Source: a virus (taxonomy: Duplodnaviria; Caudoviricetes). Taken from it: 33,941 nucleotides of DNA. Both the position numbers and the translations under genes were made by a program. The notes beneath the pieces are model-generated. The model did not search any database, was not told where the DNA came from, and worked only from the letters and a program-made list of their open reading frames with translations. Numbering within the stretch: position 1 is the first letter of the stretch; each line of letters begins with the position of its first letter. The DNA lies in IMG/VR virus record IMGVR_UViG_3300017761_003935, positions 1 through 33,941 of that record; one strand, given 5' to 3'. This document shows positions 17,375 through 30,986 of the stretch, piece after piece.

Positions 17375-18745
17375 ATGAACCTTCCAGAATACATTCAGAA
17401 TGGTCTACAGGCTGGTGTTGCCATGGCCGGCCAGATGCCGCAGTCCAGTATGGGAGCACTGTCTGGCATCGAAGAAGGCGACATCCCGCCAGAGACGAAG
17501 AAGTTCGTAGAGCGCGCAGATCAAGATTCGTCCATTTATGAACCAAGCCCGATGGTTTCCGGACCAACCTCGTTTCAGCGCGCTATTGCGGGCATTGAAA
17601 CGGGCGACTATCAGGGTCTCGAGATGCTGGAATTTGGGTCTGCTCGAGGCCAGCCGGCGGTAGCGTTCAAGGACGAGGATGGACAGCGGCAGGTGATCAA
17701 GGTCACCATGCCGCAATGGATGGCAATGATGGAGATGCGTTCTCGTGGCCGCAAGCAATTGCAGGACGCCGTGAAACTCGATGCCACCAAGAAGGCGCTG
17801 AAGCCGCAGTTCGACAGTCTGTCCCGAATGGCCCCTGGCTATGAGGATCCAGTGGTCAAGCAGGCATACTCCGACCTGTATGAATTGGCTCCACAAGACG
17901 CCATCAAGATTCTTGGAGGAAGCGTCGGAAAGACTGCTGGCGACGCGATTTATCGCGGCCGCGCAGTTACTGACGCCGAGGGCAAGGCGTTTACTGCGCT
18001 CGACAAGCGCATGTACGACAATCGCGCTGCGCGCCTAGATGGGCTGGTCCAATCGACCAACGACACCGCAACTCGCCAAGGCGTCGGCATGCTTCGGAAT
18101 CTGATTCGTCCTCCGGAAGCATCGTCGATGCCCCCGGATATGACCGTGCTCGATTGGATTCAGCAGAGCGGAATGGGTCCGCTGTCCGTCGCCAATCTGA
18201 TCCAGCAAATGACCATGGTCAACGGGATGCCGAGCGTGTCAAAGCCGGTCATCCCGCCAGTTCGAGATGCGTCTGGTGAGTACAACCCGAATCAGTTGAT
18301 GCAGTTCTCGTCGCAGTTCAACAACGTGGTTGCCAACGATTTGGGCTGGGCTCCGATCGATCTCCGAAACGAAATGCACCTAGACTCGATGATCCGTGCA
18401 TTGGATCAGTACAACGGTCAGCCTCCTGCCGCTCGGGCTGGGATCCAGCCGACCGTGCAGCCGCGACCGCAGGTGGACCGATATGCGATGCCGGAATCGC
18501 AGTCCAGAGCCACGGCTGCTGGAGATGATGCCGCAATGATTCTTGAGCGGTATATGGGTGATGCGGTAAAAGGTCAGCAGTTCGACTCTCCAGACGAAAG
18601 GCAGTACCAAATGGGCCGCATGATGATTGCCGCATACAAGGAAAATCAGCGCCGCCAAAAGGCGAATGAGCCGCCACTCGACTACCCGCCAAAGGAGGTC
18701 GTTGATCGCTTCTACGCCCTGCTCCAGGCGGGGTCCGCCAAGTGA
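17375..18745 (+). CDS. internal virion/ejection protein 3 (hypothetical)
   Basis: 456 aa from ATG 17375, 1 nt after the previous stop; GTGA overlap with the giant gene. Confidence 0.65.
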   Translation: MNLPEYIQNGLQAGVAMAGQMPQSSMGALSGIEEGDIPPETKKFVERADQDSSIYEPSPMVSGPTSFQRAIAGIETGDYQGLEMLEFGSARGQPAVAFKDEDGQRQVIKVTMPQWMAMMEMRSRGRKQLQDAVKLDATKKALKPQFDSLSRMAPGYEDPVVKQAYSDLYELAPQDAIKILGGSVGKTAGDAIYRGRAVTDAEGKAFTALDKRMYDNRAARLDGLVQSTNDTATRQGVGMLRNLIRPPEASSMPPDMTVLDWIQQSGMGPLSVANLIQQMTMVNGMPSVSKPVIPPVRDASGEYNPNQLMQFSSQFNNVVANDLGWAPIDLRNEMHLDSMIRALDQYNGQPPAARAGIQPTVQPRPQVDRYAMPESQSRATAAGDDAAMILERYMGDAVKGQQFDSPDERQYQMGRMMIAAYKENQRRQKANEPPLDYPPKEVVDRFYALLQAGSAK

Positions 18746-21700
18746 GCCAGTTCTCAAACGCATTCGATCGCCTGCGATCGGAGTTGGATGTTGAGCCGAA
18801 GAGCGATCCGATGGAGCGCCTGCGTCGCGATATGCGCCTAGAAGAGTCGCCTGGCTATCGGTCTGAAACCGAACAGTCTGCCAGATCCGTCGGTGCATTG
18901 GGCATGGCATCGTTGCAGGAACTGGCGTCCATGGCCTTTACTGGTCCGGGGCGTGTCGGCACGCCGCCGATTGCCACCGCGACCATTCTCACGGAGACGT
19001 TTGGCAAGGAAGATCTGACTCCGGAGCAGCGATCAGAGCGCGCGCAAATGTCTGAAGGCATGATGGCTCGCGCTGCGGAAGAGGGCGGGACGCTGGAGCA
19101 ATTGAAGTATGGTGCCATCAAGGCCGGCGCTGGAAAGGTTGCTTCGACGGCTCGCGGCGTTGCGCTGCTGACGCCACTTCCATTCGGCGCGCGAGATACG
19201 TTCGAGGCTGCCGCAGTCGGTATGCAGGAGGCCGCGACGCCAACCCTTGACACTGTGCCAGTCAAGATAGCGGAAGCCACCACGCAGGGCGTCATAAGTC
19301 TCGGAACCTTTATTGCTGCACCTTGGCTGATGGGCGGGCAGATGTTCCTTGAAGGCGCTGGCGGAGGCGTGGCGCAGTACGAGGCGCAGAGAATCGAAGA
19401 AGGCGGCGCTCGCACGGAAGCCGGCCGAATCATGTACGGCCTGGCTGCTGGTGGCGTAGAGGCTGCTACCGAAACTCTTGGAAACGTGGTTGGTGCGAAG
19501 ATCGCGAAGTCCACGGTTGGAAAACTGCTGGATCCACGGACGTATTACCGCGAGGCATTGGCGGCGAAGAAGATCACCGCAGCGCAGTTCGCACAGGAAA
19601 TGCAAAGGCTTGGACCGGAGGCCCCGCTGTGGCAGGTCGGAAAGGGCTTGGCCGCAGCGTATTCGACAGAGTTCGCGGAGGAGGCTGGTGCGGAACTGGG
19701 CGGCGAAGGCATTGCTCGCATCAGCGGGTTCCGGGGACGCGATGCCGCGACGCTTGCTCTCGACACAATTGAGTCGGGCGTGTACGGCGGTCTTGGTGGT
19801 CTTGGCGGACAGGGCGTTGCGATGCCCGTGTTTGCGCTACAGGCTGCTGGAGAACGTGGGGACAAGCGCGCGAAGATCGTCTCCTACCTGAAGAACACGG
19901 AATACGAAGATCCCGAAATCTGGACAAAGATCGCCCCATCCAAGATTGCGGCGATGCGTTCAATGACTCCAGACGAACAGGTTGCCGAAGTTGAATCGAG
20001 TCGCCAGGCTGCACTGACTGCGCGAGCCGACCTTGGAATGTCTCTGGCACAGCGCGCAGACATGGAGCGCAAGCGTGTTGAGTTGGCACAAAAACTCGCA
20101 GCAGCACGCAAGCGAAAGTCTGCGGATGCTGTCACGAAACTGGAATCACAGATCGGAGAAGTGCAGACGCGACTGGATGCGCTCGAGCAAGCCACATCAG
20201 TCTTGGCCGCAGACGCCACTGCTGCTGAAACTGCGTACCTTGCTGCCGCCGCCTTCGGCGCTAGCAATGCGCCACAGGCTGCACCGTTGCCGCTTGATGA
20301 TGTGCTTGCAAACCACAACGCGACGTCGGTCAATCCGTCCACGGAATCTGATAAGGCTGCCCTTACCGAACTGACGAATCTTGGATACAACGTCGTGTTC
20401 TACACGGGCGGAGATTCGGATCAGCAGGATGCGTTCTACGATCCGACATCTCCAAACACACTGTTCATTCGCGCCGGGCAGACGTCTGCGGCGAGGGCGA
20501 TCAGCCTCGGATACGAAGAAGCGATTCACGCTATCCAGTTCACCGACGCGGCATTGTGGTCGAAGTTGCGAAAGATGTTCGACGAGCAATCGGTGATCGA
20601 TGCGGCCGTCGAATACTTCCAAGATCAGACATCGGCTGTTGACGTCGCAGCGCAACGCGCAGCCATGCAGGCCATGGCTCGTCCAGAGGGTCCACAGCAG
20701 CCCGCCGCGCTCGCGCAGTTGCGAGCCGGCCAGGCACTTGTCGAGGCCGAAGGTACGGCGAACGAACTGCGCGCTGGCGTGCAGGCGATGTTCCAGACGG
20801 GAAAGGCTCCTGGCCTACTTGGAAGGATCATTACCCGCATGGGTCTGCGGGGCCAGCAAGCGGCCACGGCATTGCGAGTGCGTTCAGAAATTATCGCGTC
20901 GGCCAAGCGTCGATCGACGCCGCAGCAAACGGAACTTGGGCAGCGAGTGCGCGAGGCGTTCGCAGTCATCCGATCTCGCGAACAACTTGACGCGGATGCA
21001 AAGGCCGCAGTGCAGGCAAAGCAGGCCGCACAGGCTGCTGCACAGGCAGCGCCGGCAGCGCCGGCAGCGACGGCAGCCGCACCAGCAGCAACTACGACAG
21101 CACCAGCACCCGCTACGGCGACCGCGACCACTACGACCACGGCCCCGGCTCCGGCACCATCCGCCGCGCCTGCGCCGGCCACGCCTGCACGCTCCGCGAA
21201 TTTCCTCGAGAGCGTCAATGACGCGCTGGGTCAGATCCGCAGTAAGTCTCCAGACTTTGCACTGGGAGTAGACGCCTACTCCATCGTTGAGAAATTGCAA
21301 AAGCCCGAGACCGCGCAGACTCTGACCCAGCGAGAACGAAAGATCGGCGAGCGCATTCAGCGCATGCTGGTCAAGAGGTTTGGTGAGGACGTCACGAGCC
21401 TTTGGGCCAAGCGGCCGCCGCGCCTGTATCCGGAATTGGCGGCACTGAATAACCGATATGAATCGGGTATTGGTGGCGACTACATGACGGCGGAAGATCT
21501 CGCGGATGAGATCGAGGGCCTTGACGATTCTGGTGCAGCCATTCCTCCGGCTGTCCTAGACGCCGTCAAGGCGTATCGCACGGCTCGTGGTGAAGAGTCT
21601 GGTGAGTTCGGTGAACGTGGCGGAACGGATGTGGATGCGGCGGACGCCCTCGAGCAGGCGGTAGCCGAGGCATCTAGCGAGCGCGCGGAGCCAATTGAAC

Positions 21701-24700
21701 CACCAGCACCAGCGACCGCCGTGACGCTAGAGGCACGAAAGCCACGTCAGCAGAAGACCGTAGACCTCATGGAGGCGGATCCTGTTTCAGCACGCGAATC
21801 CCTAGGTCTCGTCGGACAAATTCCACTGACGAAGTCCGGGACTCCGACCAAGGCTGGCGCGAATAAGACTCGAGATGTGGGACTCGCATTGTCCCGCCGC
21901 ACGGTTCGTGCCGGCATGCAAATTGGTCGCAAGGATTATTCGGATCGCGCTGCTAACACACTGGCTTCATCTCTTGCAAGTGAAGTCGAATATCACCTGA
22001 CCAACTCTGCCGAATCTGGAACTGGCGAAGGGTGGTACAGCACCAACTGGCCGAATGCGGTCTCGCGCTTGGCCGCATATTTCCCAGAACTTGTCGCGGC
22101 AAATAAGGCGCGAAAGGCACAGGCTTCAGCCAGGCAGTATCGCGCAGTCTTGACGGCCTTCATTGCCATCTACTCGAATGGCGAAAAGGTGTCGATCAAC
22201 CTAAACAACGCCATTGCTGCATATGGCAAGTGGCGGTCTGGTAAAGCGCCAAGTTCGATCAACATTGGTTCGCGCCGGGATATGGAGTCCGGGCTTGCTG
22301 CAATCGAGGAAGTGCTCTCGCAGTTCGGAATGGAAGGATTTGAATCCCACTTGCGTGAGACGATGACCGTCCGAGAGATCAACAAGGCGCTTCGCGAAAA
22401 GGGCGAAGATGCCATGTCCGACTACCCGGCAGACGCCACGCTTCCGCTCGCCGCGTTCTATTTCGGAGCAAAACTTGGCGCGTTCTATGCCAACCTGATG
22501 GGCGACGCCGGCTATCTGACCATGGATCTGTGGTGGTGCAGAACCTTCAACCGTATGCGTGGGCAGTTGAAGACCACCATTTCGCCGCAGCAACTCGAAG
22601 CCTATCGAAAGAAGATGGGTCTCCCATCGGCCATGTCTCGCGCGGCGATTTTGAAGCGATCGGACGAAGCGCGGAAGCCGTATGAGGCTCGCAATTTCCA
22701 GTCTCGACTCGAACAGATCATGGGTCGCAAGGCGGGCAAGAATGCCAAGGAACGCGCCAAATTCGAGAAGGATGCAAAGGCCAAACTCGGATCGAAGTTT
22801 GTCGCGCTATTCCGCGAGCATTCACGAGAGAAGGCAAGCAACACGATTGCGAAGAATGCTTTCGACCAAATGGAAGAAGCGCCGTTCGGTGCTGCCGACC
22901 GGGCATTTATGATCGACGTGGTTCGCCGCGTTCAGGGTATTCTTGAAGAGCGCGGACTGGAACTGACCATTGCCGACATTCAGGCAGCAGCCTGGTACTA
23001 CGAAAAGGATCTCTATGCAAAACTCACAGGCAAGTCAGGCGAGCGAATCGGATATGCAGAAGGAGTCGATGCGTGGATTGCCGAGCGCAAGCGTCACGGA
23101 AATCGTCCCTTCGGACGGCTTGTTCGCGGCATGGCGCAGGGCGTTCAGCAACCTTCCGCCAAAGGAGCGAGCGAAGCAGATGGTCGAGTTGATGAAGGGC
23201 GCTCTGTCCGCCCGGAACAGCGCCGCACCCTCCTCGCCCTCGACGCCCGCCGAGTAAGTCACGAGGCACGTCCACAACTCCCAGTCGGCTTCTACTCCGC
23301 CCTGATTCGCGGCGTCGATTCTCTCGTTGCCAATTCGATGTCTGCTGATGGATGGAAGCAGCAGATCAAAATGCTGACGAATAGGGGGCTCGTGAAGCAG
23401 ACTGAAGTCGAATGGTCTGGCATCAATGAGTGGCTAGACACCCAGCCTGGAAAGGTCGAGAAGGCCACGGTCGCAGAATGGCTTGCGGAGAATGGGGTGT
23501 CGGTTCAGGTTCTTCGATTCACGGACAAGGCTCGGAGACCAAACCTCGTAAAACGATATTCCGAATACGTTCGCGAGACTTACGTAGATGAGGATGGTGT
23601 TGAGCAAGAGGGAACCCTCGAACATGTAACAACACTGTACGACGAGAACACAGACCATCAGTTTGAAATCTTCCATGACGAGGATGCTGGCAATGTCCGT
23701 GTTGTTGTTGACGGAGTTGAGCACCTTGAAGTCAAGGCGAAACTGAACAACCAGCGGTATGAAGACGCCATGATGGCGATCACGGAATTCCTTACAAAAA
23801 CACCGAAGGGATTCGATGGCAGGGCCGGCTTTGAGGAGTACAGAATTCGTGGGGCTGGAAGTATTCAGAAGGCCAACTACAGAGAACTTACTGCCTCACT
23901 TCCAGATGTCTACGCAAATCGCGCTGTGGTAGAGCCCTATATCTACGAGCAGCATATGCTGTATAAGCGCGATGCAGATATCAATCGCCTGTATCACATC
24001 CGAATGGAAGACCGTCAATCCACTGACGGCAAGAAGATTCTGTTCGTGATCGAGATTCAAAGCGACTGGGCGCAGAACATCAGGCGTGGCGAACGAATGG
24101 AAGGTGGCGCGCGCGCCGACGTCTACGATCGATTCCGAATTGTCGATATTGACACGAAGCAGGTCGTGTCTCGGCATGCGACTGACAAAGACGCTCAAGA
24201 AGAATTCGCCCGTAGGGGTTACGGCGAGTTGGATAATCTGAAATATCGCGTTGAAGAATTCCCGCCCGATGCTCCGTTTGTCGGAACAACCGATGCCTGG
24301 CTTGCGCTTGCACTCAAGCAGATTCTGCTGGAGGCCAAGGACGGTGGCTATGACATGATTGCATTTGCCAAGGGCAATCAGGTCAACAACATGTTTGGCA
24401 GCGTTATGTCTGGCGCTCGAGGCAATGGAAACCTCAAGTTCTATGACGAGATTTTGCCAGCCGCCATCTCCAAGTTGATGAAGAAGATGGGTGGACCAGC
24501 GTTGTCAAAGGTCCAGATCAAGGGCGCGAAGGGAACGCAGGACGTTCGCTTTGACTTCAATGATCCAATCGATGTCGAGGACTTTCTTACAAATGTTGGG
24601 GCAGAGGGCCTGGAAGATCGCGACTATGGAAGAGATGTTGAAGATCGTGATGGCACGCGCGTTATCGCAACACTCGACTATGTGGATGTTGGACTGTTCA

Positions 24701-27700
24701 AGGAGTTGGCAGAAGACGCCAACGGAGAGTTGACGGTTGTGAAAACATATCCGAGTGAGGCCACCCAACCATCTCTGGAACTGACTCCAAAGTTGCAAGA
24801 GACATTGCAGGCCCCCATTGCACTGTTTGCTCGCAAGCCAAAGCGCCAGGAATCCATGGCGTATGGGATTGGACGCCGCTCCGGCCAAGTCGCCGGCGTG
24901 ATGCGCGGCCGCAAGGAAGGCATGCGCGAGCAGCAGGATCGCGAGCGCGTGAAGCAGGTATCGGAACGACGGAACATGCGTGCCAAATTCAAGCAACGGC
25001 TTGAAGATGTCATGGAGCGCATTCGCCGCGACGCCGATCGAATCGGTGATCTTCGCGACAGGCTCGACGCGGCAGATCGCGCGGCTCGTGCGGACAAGGT
25101 TGAACTCGCGGAGCGCATGGATCAGCAGACCCTGCTGGCATGGTTCTCCGGCATGCAGAAGGGCAATGTCGCCGGCTACAACCAAGCCAAGAAGGACATG
25201 GAGCAGATTCGACGCGAGGTCGTTTCGATCATCGCCATGCTGCCACAGAGCATGCGCGGCTCCTACAACCTAGCGATTGCGACAATGAAGCAGTCGGATG
25301 CTGGAGTTCTCAAGATCTCCCAGCAGGTTGTGCGCGACCTGGCTACAGCCGATGCGATTGATGTCGTGAATCAGATCGTCCGAACTCGCAAGCGAGTCAA
25401 GAAGGCTGGCATGCGAAACGAGACGCGAGCATCCATCGATGCGAATCTTGATGCGGCACAGGCAATGCTGACGAGCGCGGGTCGCCGGCTGAAAGAATTC
25501 ACCACGTCCGCAGATCTTGTGCAGCGGACCAATGCAGCCAACGCATTGCTCGAGCAGGCATTCGATGACTATGACATCGAGCGTCGTGAGTACCGCGAAG
25601 GACGAACGGAGATGGCGGAAGTCGCCGCGCAGGATGCTGCCCAGTTTGCCGACACGATGGATGGGGTGGCTGGCCTTCCCGCCGAGCCGCTTGCAGAGCG
25701 TGCTCCGCAGCGCACGATTCCGCAGCAGGTAGCGATCCGCAACGCCGATGCATACACCCTCATGGAGAAACTTGAGGGATCGCAATCCGGGATCATGGGA
25801 AAGATCTGGGACACCTTGGCAGCAGCCAAGGACACCATGTTCAAGGCCCGCAGAGAGATCGACCGATCGATCGAGGCGGCCCTTCGTGCCGCTGGATATG
25901 CAGGGTATGACGGGTATGCGGCTCGCGCCGCCGGCCTGTATGGTGATGCGTCAGCCGAGACCACGGTTGTCCGCATGGCTGGTCAGGACGTGACCATGTC
26001 GGTGGACAAGATGCTCAACTTGGCGGCGCTTGATCCGGATACGGTTTCGACGTTGACCGACGAGCAGAATCCCGATCAGCCAGGCAGCGGGATCGTGTTC
26101 GATACGAACCGCCAGGCGACGCCGATCAAGTTTACCCAGCAGGAACACGCCGCCTTGGTGGCAAGCCTGACTCCGCAGCAAAAGCAACTGATCGACGAGA
26201 TGAAGAACATCCTCGAACAGCGCATCCGACCGGATGTGTTCGAGATTCATTTCCAGCAGCACGGACGTCAGCCCCCGATCGTCGATCGGTACTTCCCACG
26301 ATATCGCCTCGGAACCGAGGTGCAGGAACTGGGGATCGATTCGGTCAACATGCAGCCGGGGCAGGTGGTACAGACCATGCTGTCCAATGCGGGGTTCCTG
26401 AACAAGCGCGTGCAGTCACGCGCATCGCTGGTCATCAGCGGACTGATTCGCGTGATGGACTCGCACGTGGATGAATCGCTTCGCGTCATCCATCTGTCGC
26501 TCGCACTTCGGTACGCGCTGACGGTGATGCGATCTGCTGGCGTGCGCGCGAATATCGAACGGATCCTTGGAGACAAGGGAACAGACCTCATCCGCAAGAT
26601 GCTCTTGAATGGAGTCGGCCTATCAGGCAAGCCGGTCGGAGACATCGTCGAGAACATCAACGCAAACATCGCGGGTGCGAACCTGACGATCAACCCGAAG
26701 ACTTGGCTGCGGCAGTTGGGTGGCATCGCTCGCCTGTACACCGAGATGAGTACTGCGGCCTTCGCGGCCGGGATGGCTTCGGTCACCACCATGACTCCCG
26801 GGACACGGGCGGAGATGGCGCGTCGGGTCGAGGAAGCGAATGGTTACTTCTACGAACGCCACCGTCGCAGCCAGGTCGGTATTTTCGCGAACGTACTTGG
26901 CGATCCTCGCCAAGGAACGGAGCAGTGGTCGAATGCTTTGGCTGCTGTGGGCCGCGCATTCGCTACAGCCGGCAACGATCTCGCGGCTGGGCGATTCGCT
27001 CGAGCGTCTCGAGACGCACGCCAGGGCGCAAGCGCATTCACGCGAATCATCCGAAGTGCGGACATGTTCCTGCGGACCGTTGACAGGCAGGTGATGTTGG
27101 CTGCATTCGCTGGATACCGTTCGGAACTGTCGCGCACGAATCCGAGCATGACCAGTGACGAGTTGGATATGGCTGCGGCGAAGATGGCCGAGGCCGCATT
27201 CCGCAGAACACAGAACGTGTCCGATCCGTTGGATGACACAGTTCTTGCAGCCGAAGGAAAGTTCGATAGGGGGATCACGCGCTTCCTGTTCCCATACTCG
27301 AGCGATCCACTGAAGGGGCACAACCAATTGCGTCGCGCTTTCTCGAGCCGCGACCCAGAGAAGATTGCGAAGGCGACCGCCGGCGTCGGCATGAACATGC
27401 TGTGGAGTGCCGCCGTCAATCCGGCGTGGGCTGCTGCATTCGCAGGATTGTCTGCCCTGCTGGGCGGAGACGATGACGAGGATGAGAAGGCGATCGCGGC
27501 GATCCTCACCGAGCGCGAAATGAAGCGCATCGTTGCGCGCATCAGTGCAGAAACAGCAGCCCAGGCTTTGGGGTATCCCGGCACGTTCGCGAACGAGGTG
27601 TTGAATGCGGCGCTGCTTGGATTCAGTGGGGCAGCAGAAGGAGTCGGCGAGCCCTTGGTGATTGCATCGATGGGTGAATTGGCACGCAGCCTGGTCGAGG

Positions 27701-27927
27701 GCAAGTTCCTTGAGGCGGCTACGACTGCGGCGACCATGTCCGGCATTCCCGTTGCCGCGCCGGCTCGGGCTATTGCGGGCGCGCTGCCGAGCAACGTCGC
27801 ACCAGAGGCAAAGTTGCTGACCTACTACCGCAAACTCCGCAAGGATCGGAAGTTGACGCCTTCGCAGGCACAGCGGCTACAGGTTCTTGAGGCACGCAAC
27901 AGACTCCGGAAACTTCAAGAGTCTTGA
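18742..27927 (+). CDS. giant multidomain (polyvalent) ejection protein, 3061 aa
   Basis: Last gene of the virion module; Gly/Ala-rich N-terminal region, zincin-like domain (~aa 540-720), Ala/Pro/Thr linker, HhH glycosylase-like domain (~aa 1000-1450), FYS...EIQSDW domain (~aa 1510-2025), helical C-terminal region with hydrophobic helices. Confidence 0.85.
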   Translation: MSQFSNAFDRLRSELDVEPKSDPMERLRRDMRLEESPGYRSETEQSARSVGALGMASLQELASMAFTGPGRVGTPPIATATILTETFGKEDLTPEQRSERAQMSEGMMARAAEEGGTLEQLKYGAIKAGAGKVASTARGVALLTPLPFGARDTFEAAAVGMQEAATPTLDTVPVKIAEATTQGVISLGTFIAAPWLMGGQMFLEGAGGGVAQYEAQRIEEGGARTEAGRIMYGLAAGGVEAATETLGNVVGAKIAKSTVGKLLDPRTYYREALAAKKITAAQFAQEMQRLGPEAPLWQVGKGLAAAYSTEFAEEAGAELGGEGIARISGFRGRDAATLALDTIESGVYGGLGGLGGQGVAMPVFALQAAGERGDKRAKIVSYLKNTEYEDPEIWTKIAPSKIAAMRSMTPDEQVAEVESSRQAALTARADLGMSLAQRADMERKRVELAQKLAAARKRKSADAVTKLESQIGEVQTRLDALEQATSVLAADATAAETAYLAAAAFGASNAPQAAPLPLDDVLANHNATSVNPSTESDKAALTELTNLGYNVVFYTGGDSDQQDAFYDPTSPNTLFIRAGQTSAARAISLGYEEAIHAIQFTDAALWSKLRKMFDEQSVIDAAVEYFQDQTSAVDVAAQRAAMQAMARPEGPQQPAALAQLRAGQALVEAEGTANELRAGVQAMFQTGKAPGLLGRIITRMGLRGQQAATALRVRSEIIASAKRRSTPQQTELGQRVREAFAVIRSREQLDADAKAAVQAKQAAQAAAQAAPAAPAATAAAPAATTTAPAPATATATTTTTAPAPAPSAAPAPATPARSANFLESVNDALGQIRSKSPDFALGVDAYSIVEKLQKPETAQTLTQRERKIGERIQRMLVKRFGEDVTSLWAKRPPRLYPELAALNNRYESGIGGDYMTAEDLADEIEGLDDSGAAIPPAVLDAVKAYRTARGEESGEFGERGGTDVDAADALEQAVAEASSERAEPIEPPAPATAVTLEARKPRQQKTVDLMEADPVSARESLGLVGQIPLTKSGTPTKAGANKTRDVGLALSRRTVRAGMQIGRKDYSDRAANTLASSLASEVEYHLTNSAESGTGEGWYSTNWPNAVSRLAAYFPELVAANKARKAQASARQYRAVLTAFIAIYSNGEKVSINLNNAIAAYGKWRSGKAPSSINIGSRRDMESGLAAIEEVLSQFGMEGFESHLRETMTVREINKALREKGEDAMSDYPADATLPLAAFYFGAKLGAFYANLMGDAGYLTMDLWWCRTFNRMRGQLKTTISPQQLEAYRKKMGLPSAMSRAAILKRSDEARKPYEARNFQSRLEQIMGRKAGKNAKERAKFEKDAKAKLGSKFVALFREHSREKASNTIAKNAFDQMEEAPFGAADRAFMIDVVRRVQGILEERGLELTIADIQAAAWYYEKDLYAKLTGKSGERIGYAEGVDAWIAERKRHGNRPFGRLVRGMAQGVQQPSAKGASEADGRVDEGRSVRPEQRRTLLALDARRVSHEARPQLPVGFYSALIRGVDSLVANSMSADGWKQQIKMLTNRGLVKQTEVEWSGINEWLDTQPGKVEKATVAEWLAENGVSVQVLRFTDKARRPNLVKRYSEYVRETYVDEDGVEQEGTLEHVTTLYDENTDHQFEIFHDEDAGNVRVVVDGVEHLEVKAKLNNQRYEDAMMAITEFLTKTPKGFDGRAGFEEYRIRGAGSIQKANYRELTASLPDVYANRAVVEPYIYEQHMLYKRDADINRLYHIRMEDRQSTDGKKILFVIEIQSDWAQNIRRGERMEGGARADVYDRFRIVDIDTKQVVSRHATDKDAQEEFARRGYGELDNLKYRVEEFPPDAPFVGTTDAWLALALKQILLEAKDGGYDMIAFAKGNQVNNMFGSVMSGARGNGNLKFYDEILPAAISKLMKKMGGPALSKVQIKGAKGTQDVRFDFNDPIDVEDFLTNVGAEGLEDRDYGRDVEDRDGTRVIATLDYVDVGLFKELAEDANGELTVVKTYPSEATQPSLELTPKLQETLQAPIALFARKPKRQESMAYGIGRRSGQVAGVMRGRKEGMREQQDRERVKQVSERRNMRAKFKQRLEDVMERIRRDADRIGDLRDRLDAADRAARADKVELAERMDQQTLLAWFSGMQKGNVAGYNQAKKDMEQIRREVVSIIAMLPQSMRGSYNLAIATMKQSDAGVLKISQQVVRDLATADAIDVVNQIVRTRKRVKKAGMRNETRASIDANLDAAQAMLTSAGRRLKEFTTSADLVQRTNAANALLEQAFDDYDIERREYREGRTEMAEVAAQDAAQFADTMDGVAGLPAEPLAERAPQRTIPQQVAIRNADAYTLMEKLEGSQSGIMGKIWDTLAAAKDTMFKARREIDRSIEAALRAAGYAGYDGYAARAAGLYGDASAETTVVRMAGQDVTMSVDKMLNLAALDPDTVSTLTDEQNPDQPGSGIVFDTNRQATPIKFTQQEHAALVASLTPQQKQLIDEMKNILEQRIRPDVFEIHFQQHGRQPPIVDRYFPRYRLGTEVQELGIDSVNMQPGQVVQTMLSNAGFLNKRVQSRASLVISGLIRVMDSHVDESLRVIHLSLALRYALTVMRSAGVRANIERILGDKGTDLIRKMLLNGVGLSGKPVGDIVENINANIAGANLTINPKTWLRQLGGIARLYTEMSTAAFAAGMASVTTMTPGTRAEMARRVEEANGYFYERHRRSQVGIFANVLGDPRQGTEQWSNALAAVGRAFATAGNDLAAGRFARASRDARQGASAFTRIIRSADMFLRTVDRQVMLAAFAGYRSELSRTNPSMTSDELDMAAAKMAEAAFRRTQNVSDPLDDTVLAAEGKFDRGITRFLFPYSSDPLKGHNQLRRAFSSRDPEKIAKATAGVGMNMLWSAAVNPAWAAAFAGLSALLGGDDDEDEKAIAAILTEREMKRIVARISAETAAQALGYPGTFANEVLNAALLGFSGAAEGVGEPLVIASMGELARSLVEGKFLEAATTAATMSGIPVAAPARAIAGALPSNVAPEAKLLTYYRKLRKDRKLTPSQAQRLQVLEARNRLRKLQES
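23069..23257 (+). CDS. candidate nested +1-frame mini-gene inside the giant gene (start uncertain)
   Basis: ...EIVPSDGLFAAWRRAFSNLPPKERAKQMVELMKGALSARNSAAPSSPSTPAE*; AAGGAG at 23060-23065; overlies an Arg/Gly-rich linker of the main frame. Confidence 0.45.
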   Translation: MRGLPSASVTEIVPSDGLFAAWRRAFSNLPPKERAKQMVELMKGALSARNSAAPSSPSTPAE

Positions 27928-28243: not shown

Positions 28244-28260
28244 CTGAATTGGAGTTTCAA

Positions 28261-29118
28261 ATGTTTGAGCCACAGGAGTGGCCGAGCGTCGAGTACGACT
28301 TGGCCGAGTCAGTATACCACAGCCTCAACTACATGAGTGCATCGAGGTTGAAGGTGTTGAGTTCAGGGACATCCCTGCACCTTGATCACGAGATCCGGAA
28401 CCCGCGCGAAGACAGTGATGATCTGATGATCGGGCGCGCGCTTCACACGTTTGTCCTGCGGCGTCTCGCCTTCGACTCGGAGTTTGCAGTGATGCCGAAG
28501 GTCGATGGTCGCACCAAGGAAGGCAAGGCAGCCAAGGAACAGTTTGCGCTCGAGGCTGCGGGCAAGTCCGTCCTGACAACCGATCAGGCCGCGCAGGTCG
28601 AGGCTATGGCCTTGTCCATCGCTGCACATCCGGAGGCGTACAACCTGCTTCGCAACCTCCCTGGACGCGAAGAGGTCAGCGTGTTCGCAGAGATCTACGG
28701 CATCCAGTCGAAGTCGCGAATGGATCGCATCTTGGATATCGATGGATCGCGCGTGATCTGTGATCTCAAGACGGTGCGAGACGGAGCCGGCAGGCGCGAC
28801 TTCGAGCGCACCGTGTGGACGTATAACTATGGTCTTCAGGCTCTCATGTATTCGCGGATGGCGAACGCGGCGGGGCTGGGTCCGATCTCTGACTTCGTGT
28901 TTGTGGCGGTGGAGAAAAAGGCTCCGTATGCGGTCGCCTGCTATCGCCTTCGAGACGAGGTGCTTCAGGCATTCGGACCTCGACTCGATTCGCTGATCGC
29001 GAAGTACAACGACTACCTCGAAGCCGGGCCCGTGGGCTACACGGGCATCGAAGACTTGGCCGTGCCCGCGTGGGCGCTGCGTGAACTGGAATCTGAAATT
29101 GGAGAAAGCAATGTCTGA
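28261..29118 (+). CDS. PD-(D/E)XK exonuclease, RecE/exonuclease VIII (DUF3799)-like
   Basis: YH....SAS.LK, G.A.H..VL, KSRMDRI, DLKT and Y..Q...Y motifs, FVFVAVEKKAPY; GGAG RBS. Confidence 0.88.
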   Translation: MFEPQEWPSVEYDLAESVYHSLNYMSASRLKVLSSGTSLHLDHEIRNPREDSDDLMIGRALHTFVLRRLAFDSEFAVMPKVDGRTKEGKAAKEQFALEAAGKSVLTTDQAAQVEAMALSIAAHPEAYNLLRNLPGREEVSVFAEIYGIQSKSRMDRILDIDGSRVICDLKTVRDGAGRRDFERTVWTYNYGLQALMYSRMANAAGLGPISDFVFVAVEKKAPYAVACYRLRDEVLQAFGPRLDSLIAKYNDYLEAGPVGYTGIEDLAVPAWALRELESEIGESNV

Positions 29119-30094
29119 CATCGTGAAGAAGAACATGGCAAACGCGATTGAACAGGTCGTGATCGGTGGCGACCTGTCGAAACTGACCGCAGAGCAGCGC
29201 GTCGCATACGTCCGCACCGTGTGCGATTCGCTCGGCGTGAACCCGGCAACAACCCCGTTTCAGTACATCGTGTTGAACGGCAAGTTGACCCTGTACGCAA
29301 CCCGCTCGGCGAGCGAGCAGTTGCGGAAGATCCACGGCGTGTCGATCGCTCCTTTGGAGCGTTCGATGATGGCGGAGGCGGGCCTGTATCAGGTGGTGGC
29401 TCGAGGCAAGGATGCGACTGGTAGAGAGGATGAGGCGAGTGGAGTCGTGACGATCTCCGGGCTGAAGGGCGAGAATTTGGCAAACGCCATGCTGAAGTGC
29501 GAGACGAAGGCCAAGCGCCGCCTGACCCTCTCGATCTGCGGGCTCGGCTTCCTCGACGAGACCGAGGTCTCTGACATCCCCGGGGCGACCATGCCAACGG
29601 CCGCTCCGGTGTCGGTCGCCAAGCCCGCGCTTGAGAGCGCGCCTGGCCCAGTTGCCAAGTCTGTCGGAAGCGGTCTCGCAAAGTTGCGCGAGAAGGTCGC
29701 TTCGGCTACCGTAGTCGAGCAGGACACTCCATCCACGAGCCCCCGGAAAGGCGGGGGTGCCCCGGTTTCAATGCCGGCGAGCGCCCCCGCTTCCGAGGAT
29801 GAATCGGATGATGAGGGCGATGAGTACATCTCGGTGACGTTCAGGTACGTCGATCGCAAGCAGACCAAGAAGGGCAACGACTACGTCGCGGCGAAGACCG
29901 CCGACGGGTCGCGCTACGTCTGCTTCGATGAGAACCTCCTCGACACGATCGAGGAGACCAAGGGTCAGGCGATCCGGGTTCTCGTGGAGCCCGGCGATGG
30001 CGGGAATCCTGACCGGATCCTTGAGATCCGATCCGGCGCGGCGGCTGCGGAGCAGCGGCACGTCGAGGTGCCAGTGGATCACATCCCGTTCTAA
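29111..30094 (+). CDS. single-strand annealing recombinase (RecT/Red-beta/Rad52 superfamily) with C-terminal OB-like domain
   Basis: GDLSKL...R..Y....C.SLG.NP.T.PF and NA.LKCETKAKRR.TLSICGLG motifs; paired with the exonuclease; ends DHIPF. Confidence 0.78.
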   Translation: MSDIVKKNMANAIEQVVIGGDLSKLTAEQRVAYVRTVCDSLGVNPATTPFQYIVLNGKLTLYATRSASEQLRKIHGVSIAPLERSMMAEAGLYQVVARGKDATGREDEASGVVTISGLKGENLANAMLKCETKAKRRLTLSICGLGFLDETEVSDIPGATMPTAAPVSVAKPALESAPGPVAKSVGSGLAKLREKVASATVVEQDTPSTSPRKGGGAPVSMPASAPASEDESDDEGDEYISVTFRYVDRKQTKKGNDYVAAKTADGSRYVCFDENLLDTIEETKGQAIRVLVEPGDGGNPDRILEIRSGAAAAEQRHVEVPVDHIPF

Positions 30095-30100
30095 TGCCTT

Positions 30101-30148
30101 GCGGGGGTCGCCGGCGCGACGGAGCCGGCGGCCCCTGCTTTCCACTTT
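30101..30148 (+). terminator. intrinsic terminator after the recombination genes
   Basis: 15-bp stem (30101-30115/30124-30138) with two G-U pairs favouring the + strand, followed by TTTCCACTTT. Confidence 0.65.
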
Positions 30149-30158
30149 GGAGGAGCAC

Positions 30159-30986
30159 ATGAATGAGTTGGCACTTTTCGCAGGCGCTGGTGGCGGAATC
30201 CTTGGCGGCCACCTGCTCGGATGGCGCTGTGTCTGCGCCGTTGAGTATGACCACTATGCACGCAGCGTTCTCATGGCACGACAGAACGACGGGTGCCTCC
30301 CGCCGTTTCCGATATGGGATGATGTCAGAACCTTTGATGGACGCCCATGGAGAGGTTGTATTGACGTGGTGTCTGGAGGCTTCCCGTGCCAGGACATCAG
30401 CGCCGCTGGCAAGGGTGCAGGAATCAATGGAAAGCGATCCGGATTATGGTCCGAGATGGCGCGCATTGTCGGTGAGGTTCAACCCAGATACGTGTGGGTG
30501 GAGAACAGCCCACTGCTTATTGGAAGAGGACTTGGACTGGTCCTTGCTGACCTTGCCGCGATGGGGTTCTCTGCAAGATGGGGAGTTGTTGGAGCGCATC
30601 ACACTGGAGCGCCGCACAAAAGAGACAGAATTTGGTTGTTGGCCTACTCCGAAAGCGAGCGCGGCGGGACCGGACTTTGCAGCGGTGAAGAGAAAAAAAT
30701 CAATCAGCCTGCAAACTGCGGTAGCCATGTTTCCGACACCGTGTGCAAGCGAAGGAAGACAGGGATATCAGAATCGAAACAACGGGAAGAAGGGATCACA
30801 GAAGAGTCTGACCACGATTGTTCAGGCCGGACCATCCGACCTGGTTGGTGGGAGTCTGAACCCAACGTGGGTCGAGTGGCTAATGGGGTGGCCGCTCGGG
30901 TGGACCGATTGCGGTGCATCGGCAACGGTCAGGTTCCGAGAGTGGTGCAGCGCGCATGGAATGACTTGAGTAAGGGTTATAAATGA
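30159..30986 (+). CDS. DNA cytosine-5 methyltransferase, alpha chain (motifs I-VIII and X)
   Basis: LFAGAGG (I), GGFPCQD (IV), VENS (VI), PHKRDRIW (VIII), RLRCIGNGQVP (X); no motif IX in this frame; GGAGG RBS. Confidence 0.92.
   Translation: MNELALFAGAGGGILGGHLLGWRCVCAVEYDHYARSVLMARQNDGCLPPFPIWDDVRTFDGRPWRGCIDVVSGGFPCQDISAAGKGAGINGKRSGLWSEMARIVGEVQPRYVWVENSPLLIGRGLGLVLADLAAMGFSARWGVVGAHHTGAPHKRDRIWLLAYSESERGGTGLCSGEEKKINQPANCGSHVSDTVCKRRKTGISESKQREEGITEESDHDCSGRTIRPGWWESEPNVGRVANGVAARVDRLRCIGNGQVPRVVQRAWNDLSKGYK
30163..30969 (+). CDS. methyltransferase beta chain in the +1 frame (motif IX and TRD-like repeats); true start may be internal
   Basis: 268-codon open frame nested in the MTase gene; WPTPKAS and FPTPCAS repeats; LNPTWVEWLMGWPLGWT matches motif IX. 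Confidence 0.75.
   Translation: MSWHFSQALVAESLAATCSDGAVSAPLSMTTMHAAFSWHDRTTGASRRFRYGMMSEPLMDAHGEVVLTWCLEASRARTSAPLARVQESMESDPDYGPRWRALSVRFNPDTCGWRTAHCLLEEDLDWSLLTLPRWGSLQDGELLERITLERRTKETEFGCWPTPKASAAGPDFAAVKRKKSISLQTAVAMFPTPCASEGRQGYQNRNNGKKGSQKSLTTIVQAGPSDLVGGSLNPTWVEWLMGWPLGWTDCGASATVRFREWCSAHGMT

What the first reader, a model, noticed from the sequence alone, without database searches (positions are those of the whole stretch)
23015..23257. Nested out-of-frame mini-gene directly after the glycosylase domain: candidate built-in inhibitor
Seen: after the glycosylase-like domain the main frame becomes an Arg/Gly-rich linker (HGNRPFGRLVRGMAQGVQQ...GRVDEGRSVRPEQRR). The +1 frame there reads as an amphipathic helical hairpin (DGLFAAWRRAFSNLPPKERAKQMVELMKGAL) and stops at 23255-23257, exactly between the LDARR and HEARP boundary motifs. 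Candidate starts: ATG 23015 (AAGGA 5 nt before), ATG 23054, ATG 23069 (AAGGAG 3 nt before), or ACG 23096. Inference: an effector-immunity pair in which the antidote is overprinted on the linker, so it travels with the cassette without interrupting the giant ORF. It could protect the producing cell while the injected enzyme arrives uninhibited. This may be an undescribed arrangement.
Basis: inference. Interest (0 to 1): 0.75.

Follow-up and report, generated by a model that had tools for sequence, protein, structure and literature searches.

The report
Hidden glycosylase-blocker gene inside phage gene
A small reading frame written one base out of step inside the linker of a giant phage gene is conserved in dozens of related phages, and its product is predicted to bind the likely active-site face of the DNA-glycosylase-like domain encoded just before it, so it is likely a built-in antidote to that enzyme.

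Summary
The +1 frame is not a shadow ORF. It is stop-free in 78 of 83 non-redundant loci (about 56 expected). Over its core, selection acts on the +1 frame (dN/dS 0.37), not the main frame (1.31), yet the main frame stays open in 78 of 78 (about 15 expected). Relatives show selected SD-ATG starts; the window's own start is unresolved. The upstream domain has an HhH-GPD glycosylase fold with an invariant Lys-Asp pair. All 30 of 30 peptide-first loci carry it directly upstream. The predicted complex scores 0.83 against a best control of 0.22, with contacts on the putative DNA-binding hairpin and catalytic residues. Best reading: a nested cognate inhibitor (about 0.68). Translation, toxicity and inhibition are untested, and 4 of 83 intact-looking enzymes lack the peptide. 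This scan already noted nested genes in giant phage genes on other DNA, once after an HhH-like domain. A nested antidote is in print for Synechocystis slr0489. My searches found no phage effector case.

The parts
18742..27927 (+). Giant 3061-aa multi-domain ORF at the end of a podovirus-like structural module; likely a virion-delivered polyvalent protein (inferred from position)
   Evidence: neighbours portal, major head, SU10 adaptor and tail genes
21862..23088 (+). HhH-GPD-fold DNA-glycosylase-like domain, aa 1041-1449 (DUF7178-related)
   Evidence: AlphaFold2 pLDDT 89.3; VIA-align best Z 10.1, with DNA glycosylases or their fold relatives in all 24 rows at Z>=5; weak DUF7178 hits
22471..22473 (+). 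Invariant Lys (domain residue 204, aa 1244), putative HhH catalytic lysine; in the predicted interface
   Evidence: invariant in 75 of 75; 18 residues before the Asp, as in the fetched Nth proteins
22525..22527 (+). Invariant Asp (domain residue 222, aa 1262), putative catalytic aspartate; in the predicted interface
23005..23017 (+). Candidate start 1: AAGGA, 5-nt spacer, ATG 23015 (80-aa product)
   Evidence: SD -5.4 kcal/mol; the same ATG position is connected to the core in 26 of 79 loci, window included
23054..23056 (+). Candidate start 2: ATG 23054 (67 aa), weak SD
   Evidence: SD -3.5 kcal/mol; may be a by-product of the conserved main-frame Tyr codon (TAT in 34 of 77)
23060..23071 (+). 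Candidate start 3: AAGGAG, 3-nt spacer, ATG 23069 (62 aa); strongest SD but a short spacer
   Evidence: SD -7.6 kcal/mol, against 6% of the 86 +1 ATGs of the gene at <=-7
23069..23257 (+). Nested +1-frame ORF, shortest form. Core under selection about 23084-23188; predicted interface residues 8-46 = 23090-23206; stop TAA 23255-23257
23089..23277 (+). Main-frame Gly/Arg-rich linker that reads through the nested ORF; free to drift but kept stop-free
   Evidence: main-frame dN/dS 1.31; open in 78 of 78 against 14.9 expected; Gly 18% in main against 3% in +1

Best explanation
The +1 frame is a conserved nested reading frame, very probably translated, whose roughly 45-residue core is predicted to bind the adjacent HhH-GPD-fold domain across its putative DNA-binding hairpin and catalytic Lys-Asp pair, and so likely acts as that enzyme's cognate inhibitor. 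Shown here: frame-specific selection, start signals in relatives, linkage to the domain, the fold and the modelled interface. Inferred: the giant protein is made late and packaged; its glycosylase/AP-lyase would damage DNA in the producing cell, including phage DNA; ribosomes initiating inside the giant mRNA make the peptide, which blocks the enzyme; the non-covalent peptide would be left behind or stripped at ejection, so the enzyme acts in the next host. Writing the antidote in the linker's +1 frame keeps enzyme and antidote on one mobile cassette without breaking the polyprotein.
For: +1 open in 78 of 83 against 55.9 expected; +2 open in 5 of 83. In 36 disjoint pairs, core dN/dS is 0.37 [0.29-0.45] in +1 and 1.31 [1.05-1.63] in main, while the domain gives main 0.11. 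Main frame open in 78 of 78 against 14.9 expected. SD-forming synonymous codons: Gly GGA/GGG 27 of 29 against 25%, Arg AGA/AGG 22 of 25 against 18%, ATG-forming GAT 30 of 34 against 59%. A connected ATG with SD <=-5 in 57 of 79 against 2-5 in four control windows. L042: main frame closes after the domain, which there ends a portal fusion, and the peptide opens the next ORF. Peptide-first search: 30 of 30 loci have the glycosylase upstream; the ORF persists before at least six kinds of downstream domain. Complex 0.83, best control 0.22, runs agree in at least 88% of contacts, partner pLDDT at least 82; the mark was reached by 116 of 157 solved and 2 of 215 mismatched pairs. The interface includes residues 198-200, 202-204 and 217-222; in AfNth1 the HhH residues G118-S123 around K122 grip the DNA backbone (PMC13490550, passages).
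Against: No translation, toxicity, activity or inhibition data exist. Four of 83 loci (L045, L048, L052, L117) lack a recognisable peptide yet keep the G-x-K...D motif. The window is in none of the 36 dN/dS pairs; against 82 relatives its ungapped identity favours +1 in 36, main in 29, ties 17, and the leave-one-out HMM gives only E 0.0034, or 0.037 without L002. The window has Val where 56 of 75 peptides have Asp (position 13), and its best SD has a 3-nt spacer. The peptide is not acidic (8 K/R against 5 D/E in the 62-aa form; median net charge 0 in 75), unlike classic DNA mimics. Many contacts fall on residues 142-196, away from the catalytic motif, which a stabilising subunit would also give. 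In L042 the peptide is fused to a multi-domain ORF that may itself be packaged. No coordinates were returned, so overlap with the DNA path rests on motif mapping.
Confidence: 0.68

Rival explanations
1. The peptide is real and binds, but as a stabilising, folding or activating subunit, or a packaging chaperone, rather than an inhibitor.
For: Large interface (127-154 contacts) with backbone-like pairing of peptide residues 10-14 to 218-221, and packing on the 142-196 insert. Not acidic.
Against: The domain folds alone at pLDDT 89. Four of 83 intact-looking enzymes lack the peptide. Contacts include the invariant G202, K204, T220 and D222.
Confidence: 0.15
2. A real nested gene that hitchhikes in the linker and has nothing to do with the glycosylase.
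For: Linkers hold other +1 ORF families, one of mixed context (9 loci). Physical linkage alone makes neighbours travel together.
Against: 30 of 30 peptide-first loci follow the glycosylase, whatever the downstream domain, and also in a portal-fusion chassis. Complex 0.83, against 0.00 when the domain is replaced.
Confidence: 0.08
3. A programmed +1 frameshift at the domain's end makes a short, self-inhibited enzyme-peptide fusion instead of a separate peptide.
For: The peptide starts right at the domain's C-terminus and is predicted to fold back on it. Start positions vary among clades.
Against: Selected SD and ATG codons. In 30 of 79 loci a +1 stop lies shortly before the core, limiting where a shift could occur. 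No slippery site was looked for systematically.
Confidence: 0.06
4. A shadow ORF produced by a Gly/Arg-rich linker at 55-60% GC.
For: The synonymous null leaves 56 of 83 open, and one domain control window is open in 53 of 83. The window has 13 such +1 stretches.
Against: dN/dS and positional variability flip to the +1 frame. The peptide survives where the main frame is closed (L042). Both strain variants inside the ORF are silent in +1 and change the main frame.
Confidence: 0.03

Closest known systems
Synechocystis slr0489/slr1079/slr1082 genes-in-genes (bioRxiv 10.64898/2025.12.20.695498; passages and sections 18 and 22 read)
   Same: An out-of-frame internal ORF whose product binds the host-gene product and, for Slr0489, neutralises its growth toxicity.
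   Different: Chromosomal spanin-like membrane proteins of about 150 aa with a 112-aa nested protein. Here a roughly 60-aa peptide lies in one linker of a 3061-aa phage polyprotein and is predicted to bind one enzyme domain. No sequence comparison was made.
Lambda Rz/Rz1 embedded spanins (described in section 22 of the same preprint)
   Same: A phage gene wholly embedded out of frame, with interacting products.
   Different: Two structural halves of a lysis machine, not an enzyme and its regulator.
Polyvalent proteins of phages (Iyer et al. 2017, PMC5512222; abstract, outline and term passages)
   Same: Giant multi-enzyme proteins with swappable domains, predicted to be injected with the DNA.
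   Different: The main text has 0 occurrences of 'glycosylase', 'overlap' or 'linker'; no nested inhibitor appears in the passages seen. Supplements not read.
Phage glycosylase inhibitors Ugi, p56, SAUGI (search listing and abstract starts)
   Same: Small proteins that block a glycosylase's DNA-binding surface.
   Different: DNA mimics aimed at the host's uracil-DNA glycosylase, in stand-alone genes (their acidity is recalled). This peptide is near neutral, nested, and aimed at the phage's own HhH-GPD-fold enzyme.
Polymorphic-toxin and MuF effector-immunity pairs, type II toxin-antitoxins (recalled)
   Same: A small cognate antidote encoded immediately downstream of a variable toxic domain.
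   Different: There the toxin ends the gene and immunity follows as a separate gene, much as in L042. Here the effector is internal and the antidote is overprinted, so read-through is kept.

Membership tests
Nested (overprinted) protein-coding gene | Purifying selection on the alternative frame | tested here: met
   +1 dN/dS 0.37, main 1.31, in 36 disjoint pairs of relatives; the window is in no pair
Nested (overprinted) protein-coding gene | Own start and ribosome-binding site, family level | tested here: met
Nested (overprinted) protein-coding gene | Identified start in the window itself | tested here: inconclusive
   three ATGs with SD -5.4, -3.5 and -7.6; spacers short; the clade-typical ATG is absent
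Nested (overprinted) protein-coding gene | Host frame reads through | tested here: met
   78 of 78 against 14.9 expected; 1 of 123 unique loci (L042) stops
Nested (overprinted) protein-coding gene | Translation shown | not testable with these tools
   only contigs could be laid
HhH-GPD DNA glycosylase superfamily | Fold | tested here: met
   best Z 10.1, rmsd 4.5, 198 aligned (3n0u); glycosylases or fold relatives in all 24 rows with Z>=5. Foldseek had no match at E<=0.001, and Z under 13 can be weak for helical models
HhH-GPD DNA glycosylase superfamily | Catalytic Lys-Asp dyad | tested here: met
   invariant K204 and D222, 18 apart, as in 5 fetched Nth proteins; AfOgg1 K122/D140. Assignment by motif and spacing
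HhH-GPD DNA glycosylase superfamily | Sequence-profile match to Nth/MutY | tested here: inconclusive
   hhalign probability 0.07 against 9 proteins; no Pfam HhH-GPD hit
HhH-GPD DNA glycosylase superfamily | Base-excision activity and substrate | not testable with these tools
   the fold list also holds a queuine-salvage hydrolase (Z 9.3) and a phage glycinyltransferase (Z 6.6)
DUF7178 (PF23802) | Score over the curated cut-off | tested here: inconclusive
   31 of 37 members hit weakly, best E 3.6e-5, the window not among them; L042 15.4 bits against cut-off 27; Atlas feature score 0.96
Effector-immunity / type II toxin-antitoxin pair | Antidote gene tightly linked to the effector | tested here: met
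   30 of 30 peptide-first loci; 79 of 83 domain-first loci keep an open +1 ORF there, some too diverged to prove homology
Effector-immunity / type II toxin-antitoxin pair | Direct binding (structure prediction only) | tested here: met
   0.83 against best control 0.22; a model, not a measurement
Effector-immunity / type II toxin-antitoxin pair | Toxicity and neutralisation | not testable with these tools
   bench test needed
DNA-mimic glycosylase inhibitors (Ugi/p56/SAUGI type) | Strongly acidic protein | tested here: not met
   net +3 in the window, median 0 in 75; two Asp positions are each kept in 56 of 75
Phage polyvalent proteins | Large multi-domain ORF in the virion module, with mobile domains | tested here: met
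   different downstream domains among relatives
Phage polyvalent proteins | Named polyvalent-protein domains | tested here: inconclusive
   no Pfam or PHROG family over cut-off in the whole protein or six pieces
Phage polyvalent proteins | Packaged and injected | not testable with these tools
   inferred from gene position

The most novel reading that the evidence does not exclude
Phage polyvalent proteins are effector-immunity arrays in disguise: each toxic domain travels with its own antidote overprinted in the +1 frame of an adjoining linker, which is why these linkers are Gly/Arg-rich. This peptide would be a protein inhibitor of an HhH-GPD glycosylase, a class for which my searches found none, and linker frames would be a mineable source of unannotated inhibitors. 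Two further +1 families here track their own downstream domains (11 of 12 and 7 of 15 loci, none elsewhere among 119).
Probability: 0.5. Interest if true: 0.9.

Novelty: new variant of a known kind. Interest (0 to 1): 0.78.

Why it matters
It offers a testable answer to how phages make and package multi-enzyme injected proteins without harming the producing cell or their own DNA. It points to a family of small genes that annotation misses: three GenBank phage records show only the giant CDS over the matching stretch, where SD-led +1 ORFs lie. The domain has 1570 representatives at 50% identity. A named enzyme-peptide pair with a predicted interface makes the immunity idea directly testable, and Limnohabitans phage DC33, with a named host, offers an in vivo system. 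An inhibitor of an HhH-GPD enzyme would also be a useful reagent.

Tried and rejected
No Pfam or PHROG family over cut-off for the giant protein, domain or peptide. No PDB sequence match and no Foldseek match at E<=0.001; only VIA-align found the fold. Profile alignment to Nth/MutY was not significant. The Atlas gave no usable hit for the peptide. The search of the window's own genome with A3 is circular and was replaced by a leave-one-out test. The full peptide alignment was too variable for a DNA-pattern scan, so 19 close sequences were used; that scan sees one clade only, and 19 of 49 pattern matches were not confirmed or examined. Ten database proteins match the peptide profile, but their DNA context could not be fetched, so they are no evidence of stand-alone genes. 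One RNA-library contig covers 22974-23161 at depth 3: not evidence of transcription or translation. One search's variant table was cut (39 rows hidden) and was not counted. ACG 23096 rejected as a start (no SD). Local mRNA folding did not separate the three ATGs. Tree congruence and inter-chain covariation were not tried, because linkage and 75 rows would not make them informative. Literature searches (CC-licensed PMC and bioRxiv only) listed no paper on nested inhibitors in phage polyvalent proteins and none naming DUF7178; most subscription journals are not covered.

Full report
Setting. The window is a 33,941-base virus record with terminase, portal, major head, SU10-type adaptor and tail genes, followed by a 3061-codon ORF at 18742-27927. 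Near-identical DNA lies mostly in freshwater and lake metagenomes. The giant ORF has no Pfam or PHROG family over cut-off. That it is a packaged, injected polyvalent protein is inferred from size and position.

Observation. All coordinates check. Alone the ORF proves nothing: this gene has 13 stop-free +1 stretches of 60 codons or more, and redrawing synonymous codons leaves the window's core open 78% of the time.

Relatives. The upstream domain was used to fetch 52 and 80 viral loci (overlapping sets), 80 metagenome loci, 9 genome loci and 3 GenBank phage regions. Of 225 records, 223 were anchored on the conserved Trp of the QAxxW motif; removing 4 short ones and duplicates left 123. Four were set aside for the frame tests (L042, whose main frame stops; L053-L055, which have a longer C-terminus), leaving 119, or 83 at under 85% identity, window included.

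Frame tests. Over codons +28 to +62 the +1 frame is stop-free in 78 of 83, against 55.9 under a synonymous null, 5 of 83 in +2, 15, 53 and 31 of 83 in three domain windows, and 29 of 83 and 30 of 82 downstream. In 36 disjoint pairs, dN/dS in the domain is 0.11 (main) and 1.54 (+1); in the core it is 1.31 [1.05-1.63] (main) and 0.37 [0.29-0.45] (+1), and the most variable position moves from main position 3 to main position 1, the +1 wobble. Between them (+14 to +30) the main frame still rules (0.17) but dS falls from 0.85 to 0.28, so the N-terminal extension of the nested ORF is not itself conserved as protein. The main frame stays open in 78 of 78 where 14.9 would if only the peptide mattered. 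Both frames are therefore maintained: one as protein, one as a stop-free linker. The Gly/Arg richness (Gly 18% main, 3% in +1) is largely the shadow of the nested gene.

Start signals. In 34 loci with main-frame D-D at +16/+17, synonymous choices build an SD and an ATG: Gly GGA/GGG 27 of 29 (background 25%), Arg AGA/AGG 22 of 25 (18%), GAT 30 of 34 (59%), while the next Asp is GAT in 3 of 34. These loci are related, so the nominal P values overstate. A connected ATG with SD <=-5 kcal/mol exists in 57 of 79 loci against 2-5 in four control windows (controls are also less often open). Starts turn over: L041, L051, L216 and L224 have other ATGs with SD -9.5 to -11.8. The window lacks the +16 ATG. 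ATG 23069 has the best SD (-7.6) but a 3-nt spacer, which I recall to be poor; 23015 has -5.4 and 5 nt. The start is unresolved.

The window's own copy. It is in none of the 36 pairs. A profile built without it ranks its +1 ORF first among all six-frame segments (E 0.0034; 0.037 without its closest relative L002). Against L002 the core is 16 of 34 identical in +1 and 11 of 34 in main, but over all 82 relatives the ungapped comparison is undecided (36, 29, 17 ties). Among 14 strain-variant sites in four runs, the 2 inside 23069-23254 are silent in +1 and change the main frame; 9 of the 12 outside are silent in main, including 23052, which would change the peptide if it started at 23015. Small numbers, same direction.

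The enzyme. AlphaFold2 gives pLDDT 89.3. Foldseek found nothing at E<=0.001. VIA-align lists DNA glycosylases or their fold relatives in all 24 rows with Z>=5, best 10.1 (rmsd 4.5, 198 aligned); that the queuine-salvage enzyme and PaMx11 gp46 belong to this fold is recalled. K204 and D222 are invariant in 75 and 18 apart, as in five fetched Nth proteins and AfOgg1 K122/D140 (PMC13490550, passages), which suggests a bifunctional glycosylase/AP-lyase. The profile match to Nth/MutY is not significant, and the substrate is unknown.

Linkage. A peptide-first scan returned 30 loci, all with the glycosylase motifs directly upstream (one clade only). The ORF persists before at least six kinds of downstream domain. 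In L042 the domain ends a portal-fusion protein, the main frame carries several stops, and the peptide begins the next 854-codon ORF. Against this, L045, L048, L052 and L117 lack a recognisable peptide (judged by eye) but keep the catalytic motif, so it is not obligatory at this place.

Complex. Domain (409 aa) plus peptide (49 aa), each with a 75-row alignment: score 0.83 (0.83, 0.87, 0.83), best of 3 controls 0.22, contacts agreeing in at least 88%, partner pLDDT at least 82. The mark was reached by 116 of 157 solved complexes and 2 of 215 mismatched pairs; the counts hold only roughly with my own alignments. Neither chain has a PDB sequence relative for the domain or a family hit for the peptide, so a pass from memory is less likely. 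The tightest contacts are peptide I12-P14 with 218-221 and 203, and its helices with 146-151 and 198-200. In AfNth1, HhH residues G118-S123 engage the DNA backbone and D139/H141 sit at the lesion; the hairpin binds two phosphates across the superfamily (PMC3397491, passages). Mapping K204 to K122 puts the peptide on that surface. This is inference: coordinates were not returned, and much of the interface (142-196) lies on an insert.

Mechanism and odds. Translated gene about 0.93; binds the domain about 0.85; inhibits it about 0.68 overall. Rivals: stabilising or activating subunit 0.15, unrelated hitchhiker 0.08, frameshift fusion 0.06, shadow 0.03.

Known and new. A nested protein that binds and neutralises its host-gene product is reported for Synechocystis slr0489 (sections 18 and 22 read; its supplements are closed, including the heterodimer model). 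Rz/Rz1 is the phage precedent for embedding. Iyer et al. 2017 has no 'glycosylase' or 'overlap' in its main text; its supplements were not read and may list such domains. Ten searches found no phage effector with a nested inhibitor. This scan noted nested +1 genes in giant phage genes in eight findings on other genomes and once after an HhH-like domain; none matched this sequence. Those notes are unchecked and are not counted as support. What this case adds is a defined enzyme fold, reciprocal linkage and a controlled, high-scoring interface at the putative active site. Verdict: new variant of a known kind, interest 0.78.

Noticed in passing
L007, L012, L017, L019, L021, L027, L028, L039, L144, L147, L156 (+1 frame, after the glycosylase peptide); also L053:5070-5285: A second +1 family (motif DPIE.AM, ending in FG[FY] before the stop) occurs in 11 of 12 loci whose next main-frame domain has an RVLG motif, and in none of the other 107; often fused to the glycosylase peptide. 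Candidate antidote of the downstream domain.
   Followed up: partly
L119, L125, L140, L180, L183, L184, L220: A third +1 family (motif PETE.D) overlaps the start of a GPDP-motif domain in 7 of 15 such loci and nowhere else; by eye, several of the other 8 carry variants.
   Followed up: partly
L018, L027, L039, L043, L142, L146, L156, L160, L217: A fourth +1 family (motif LP[FV]DPA), sometimes with its own ATG right after the first stop, in mixed downstream contexts: possibly an orphan antidote.
   Followed up: partly
L042:407-7724: HK97-like portal fused to effector domains ending in the glycosylase; the next ORF starts with the peptide and holds a Zeta_toxin-like kinase and a DUF3626 hit. A Gly/Arg-rich stretch after the kinase may hide another nested ORF.
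   Followed up: partly
L053:5070-5285 (Limnohabitans phage DC33), L054:5286-5474, L055:5127-5315: Distant GenBank relatives carry unannotated +1 ORFs of 71, 62 and 62 aa after the domain, each with AGGAG(G) shortly before the ATG; homology to the window's peptide was not shown.
   Followed up: partly
window about 21730, 23239 and 24820; LSLR-type motifs in relatives: Short recurring motifs at domain boundaries (LEARK, LDARR, LFARK in the window; K-L/Y/F-S-L-R in relatives), which by eye often supply the +1 stop codon; possible processing sites.
   Followed up: no
L044, L045, L051, L132, L189, L200, L207: In one subgroup the main frame repeats a GPDG motif (DRM in +1); L045 keeps a GPEG variant after losing the +1 ORF, a possible decay intermediate.
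   Followed up: no
window 23278-24600: The next domain of the giant protein has an EIQSDW motif suggestive of a PD-(D/E)xK-like nuclease (label recalled); no Pfam hit; no nested partner was looked for.
   Followed up: no
window 28249-30986: Exonuclease VIII-like and C5 cytosine methyltransferase genes follow the giant ORF; self-methylation could bear on the glycosylase's substrate.
   Followed up: no
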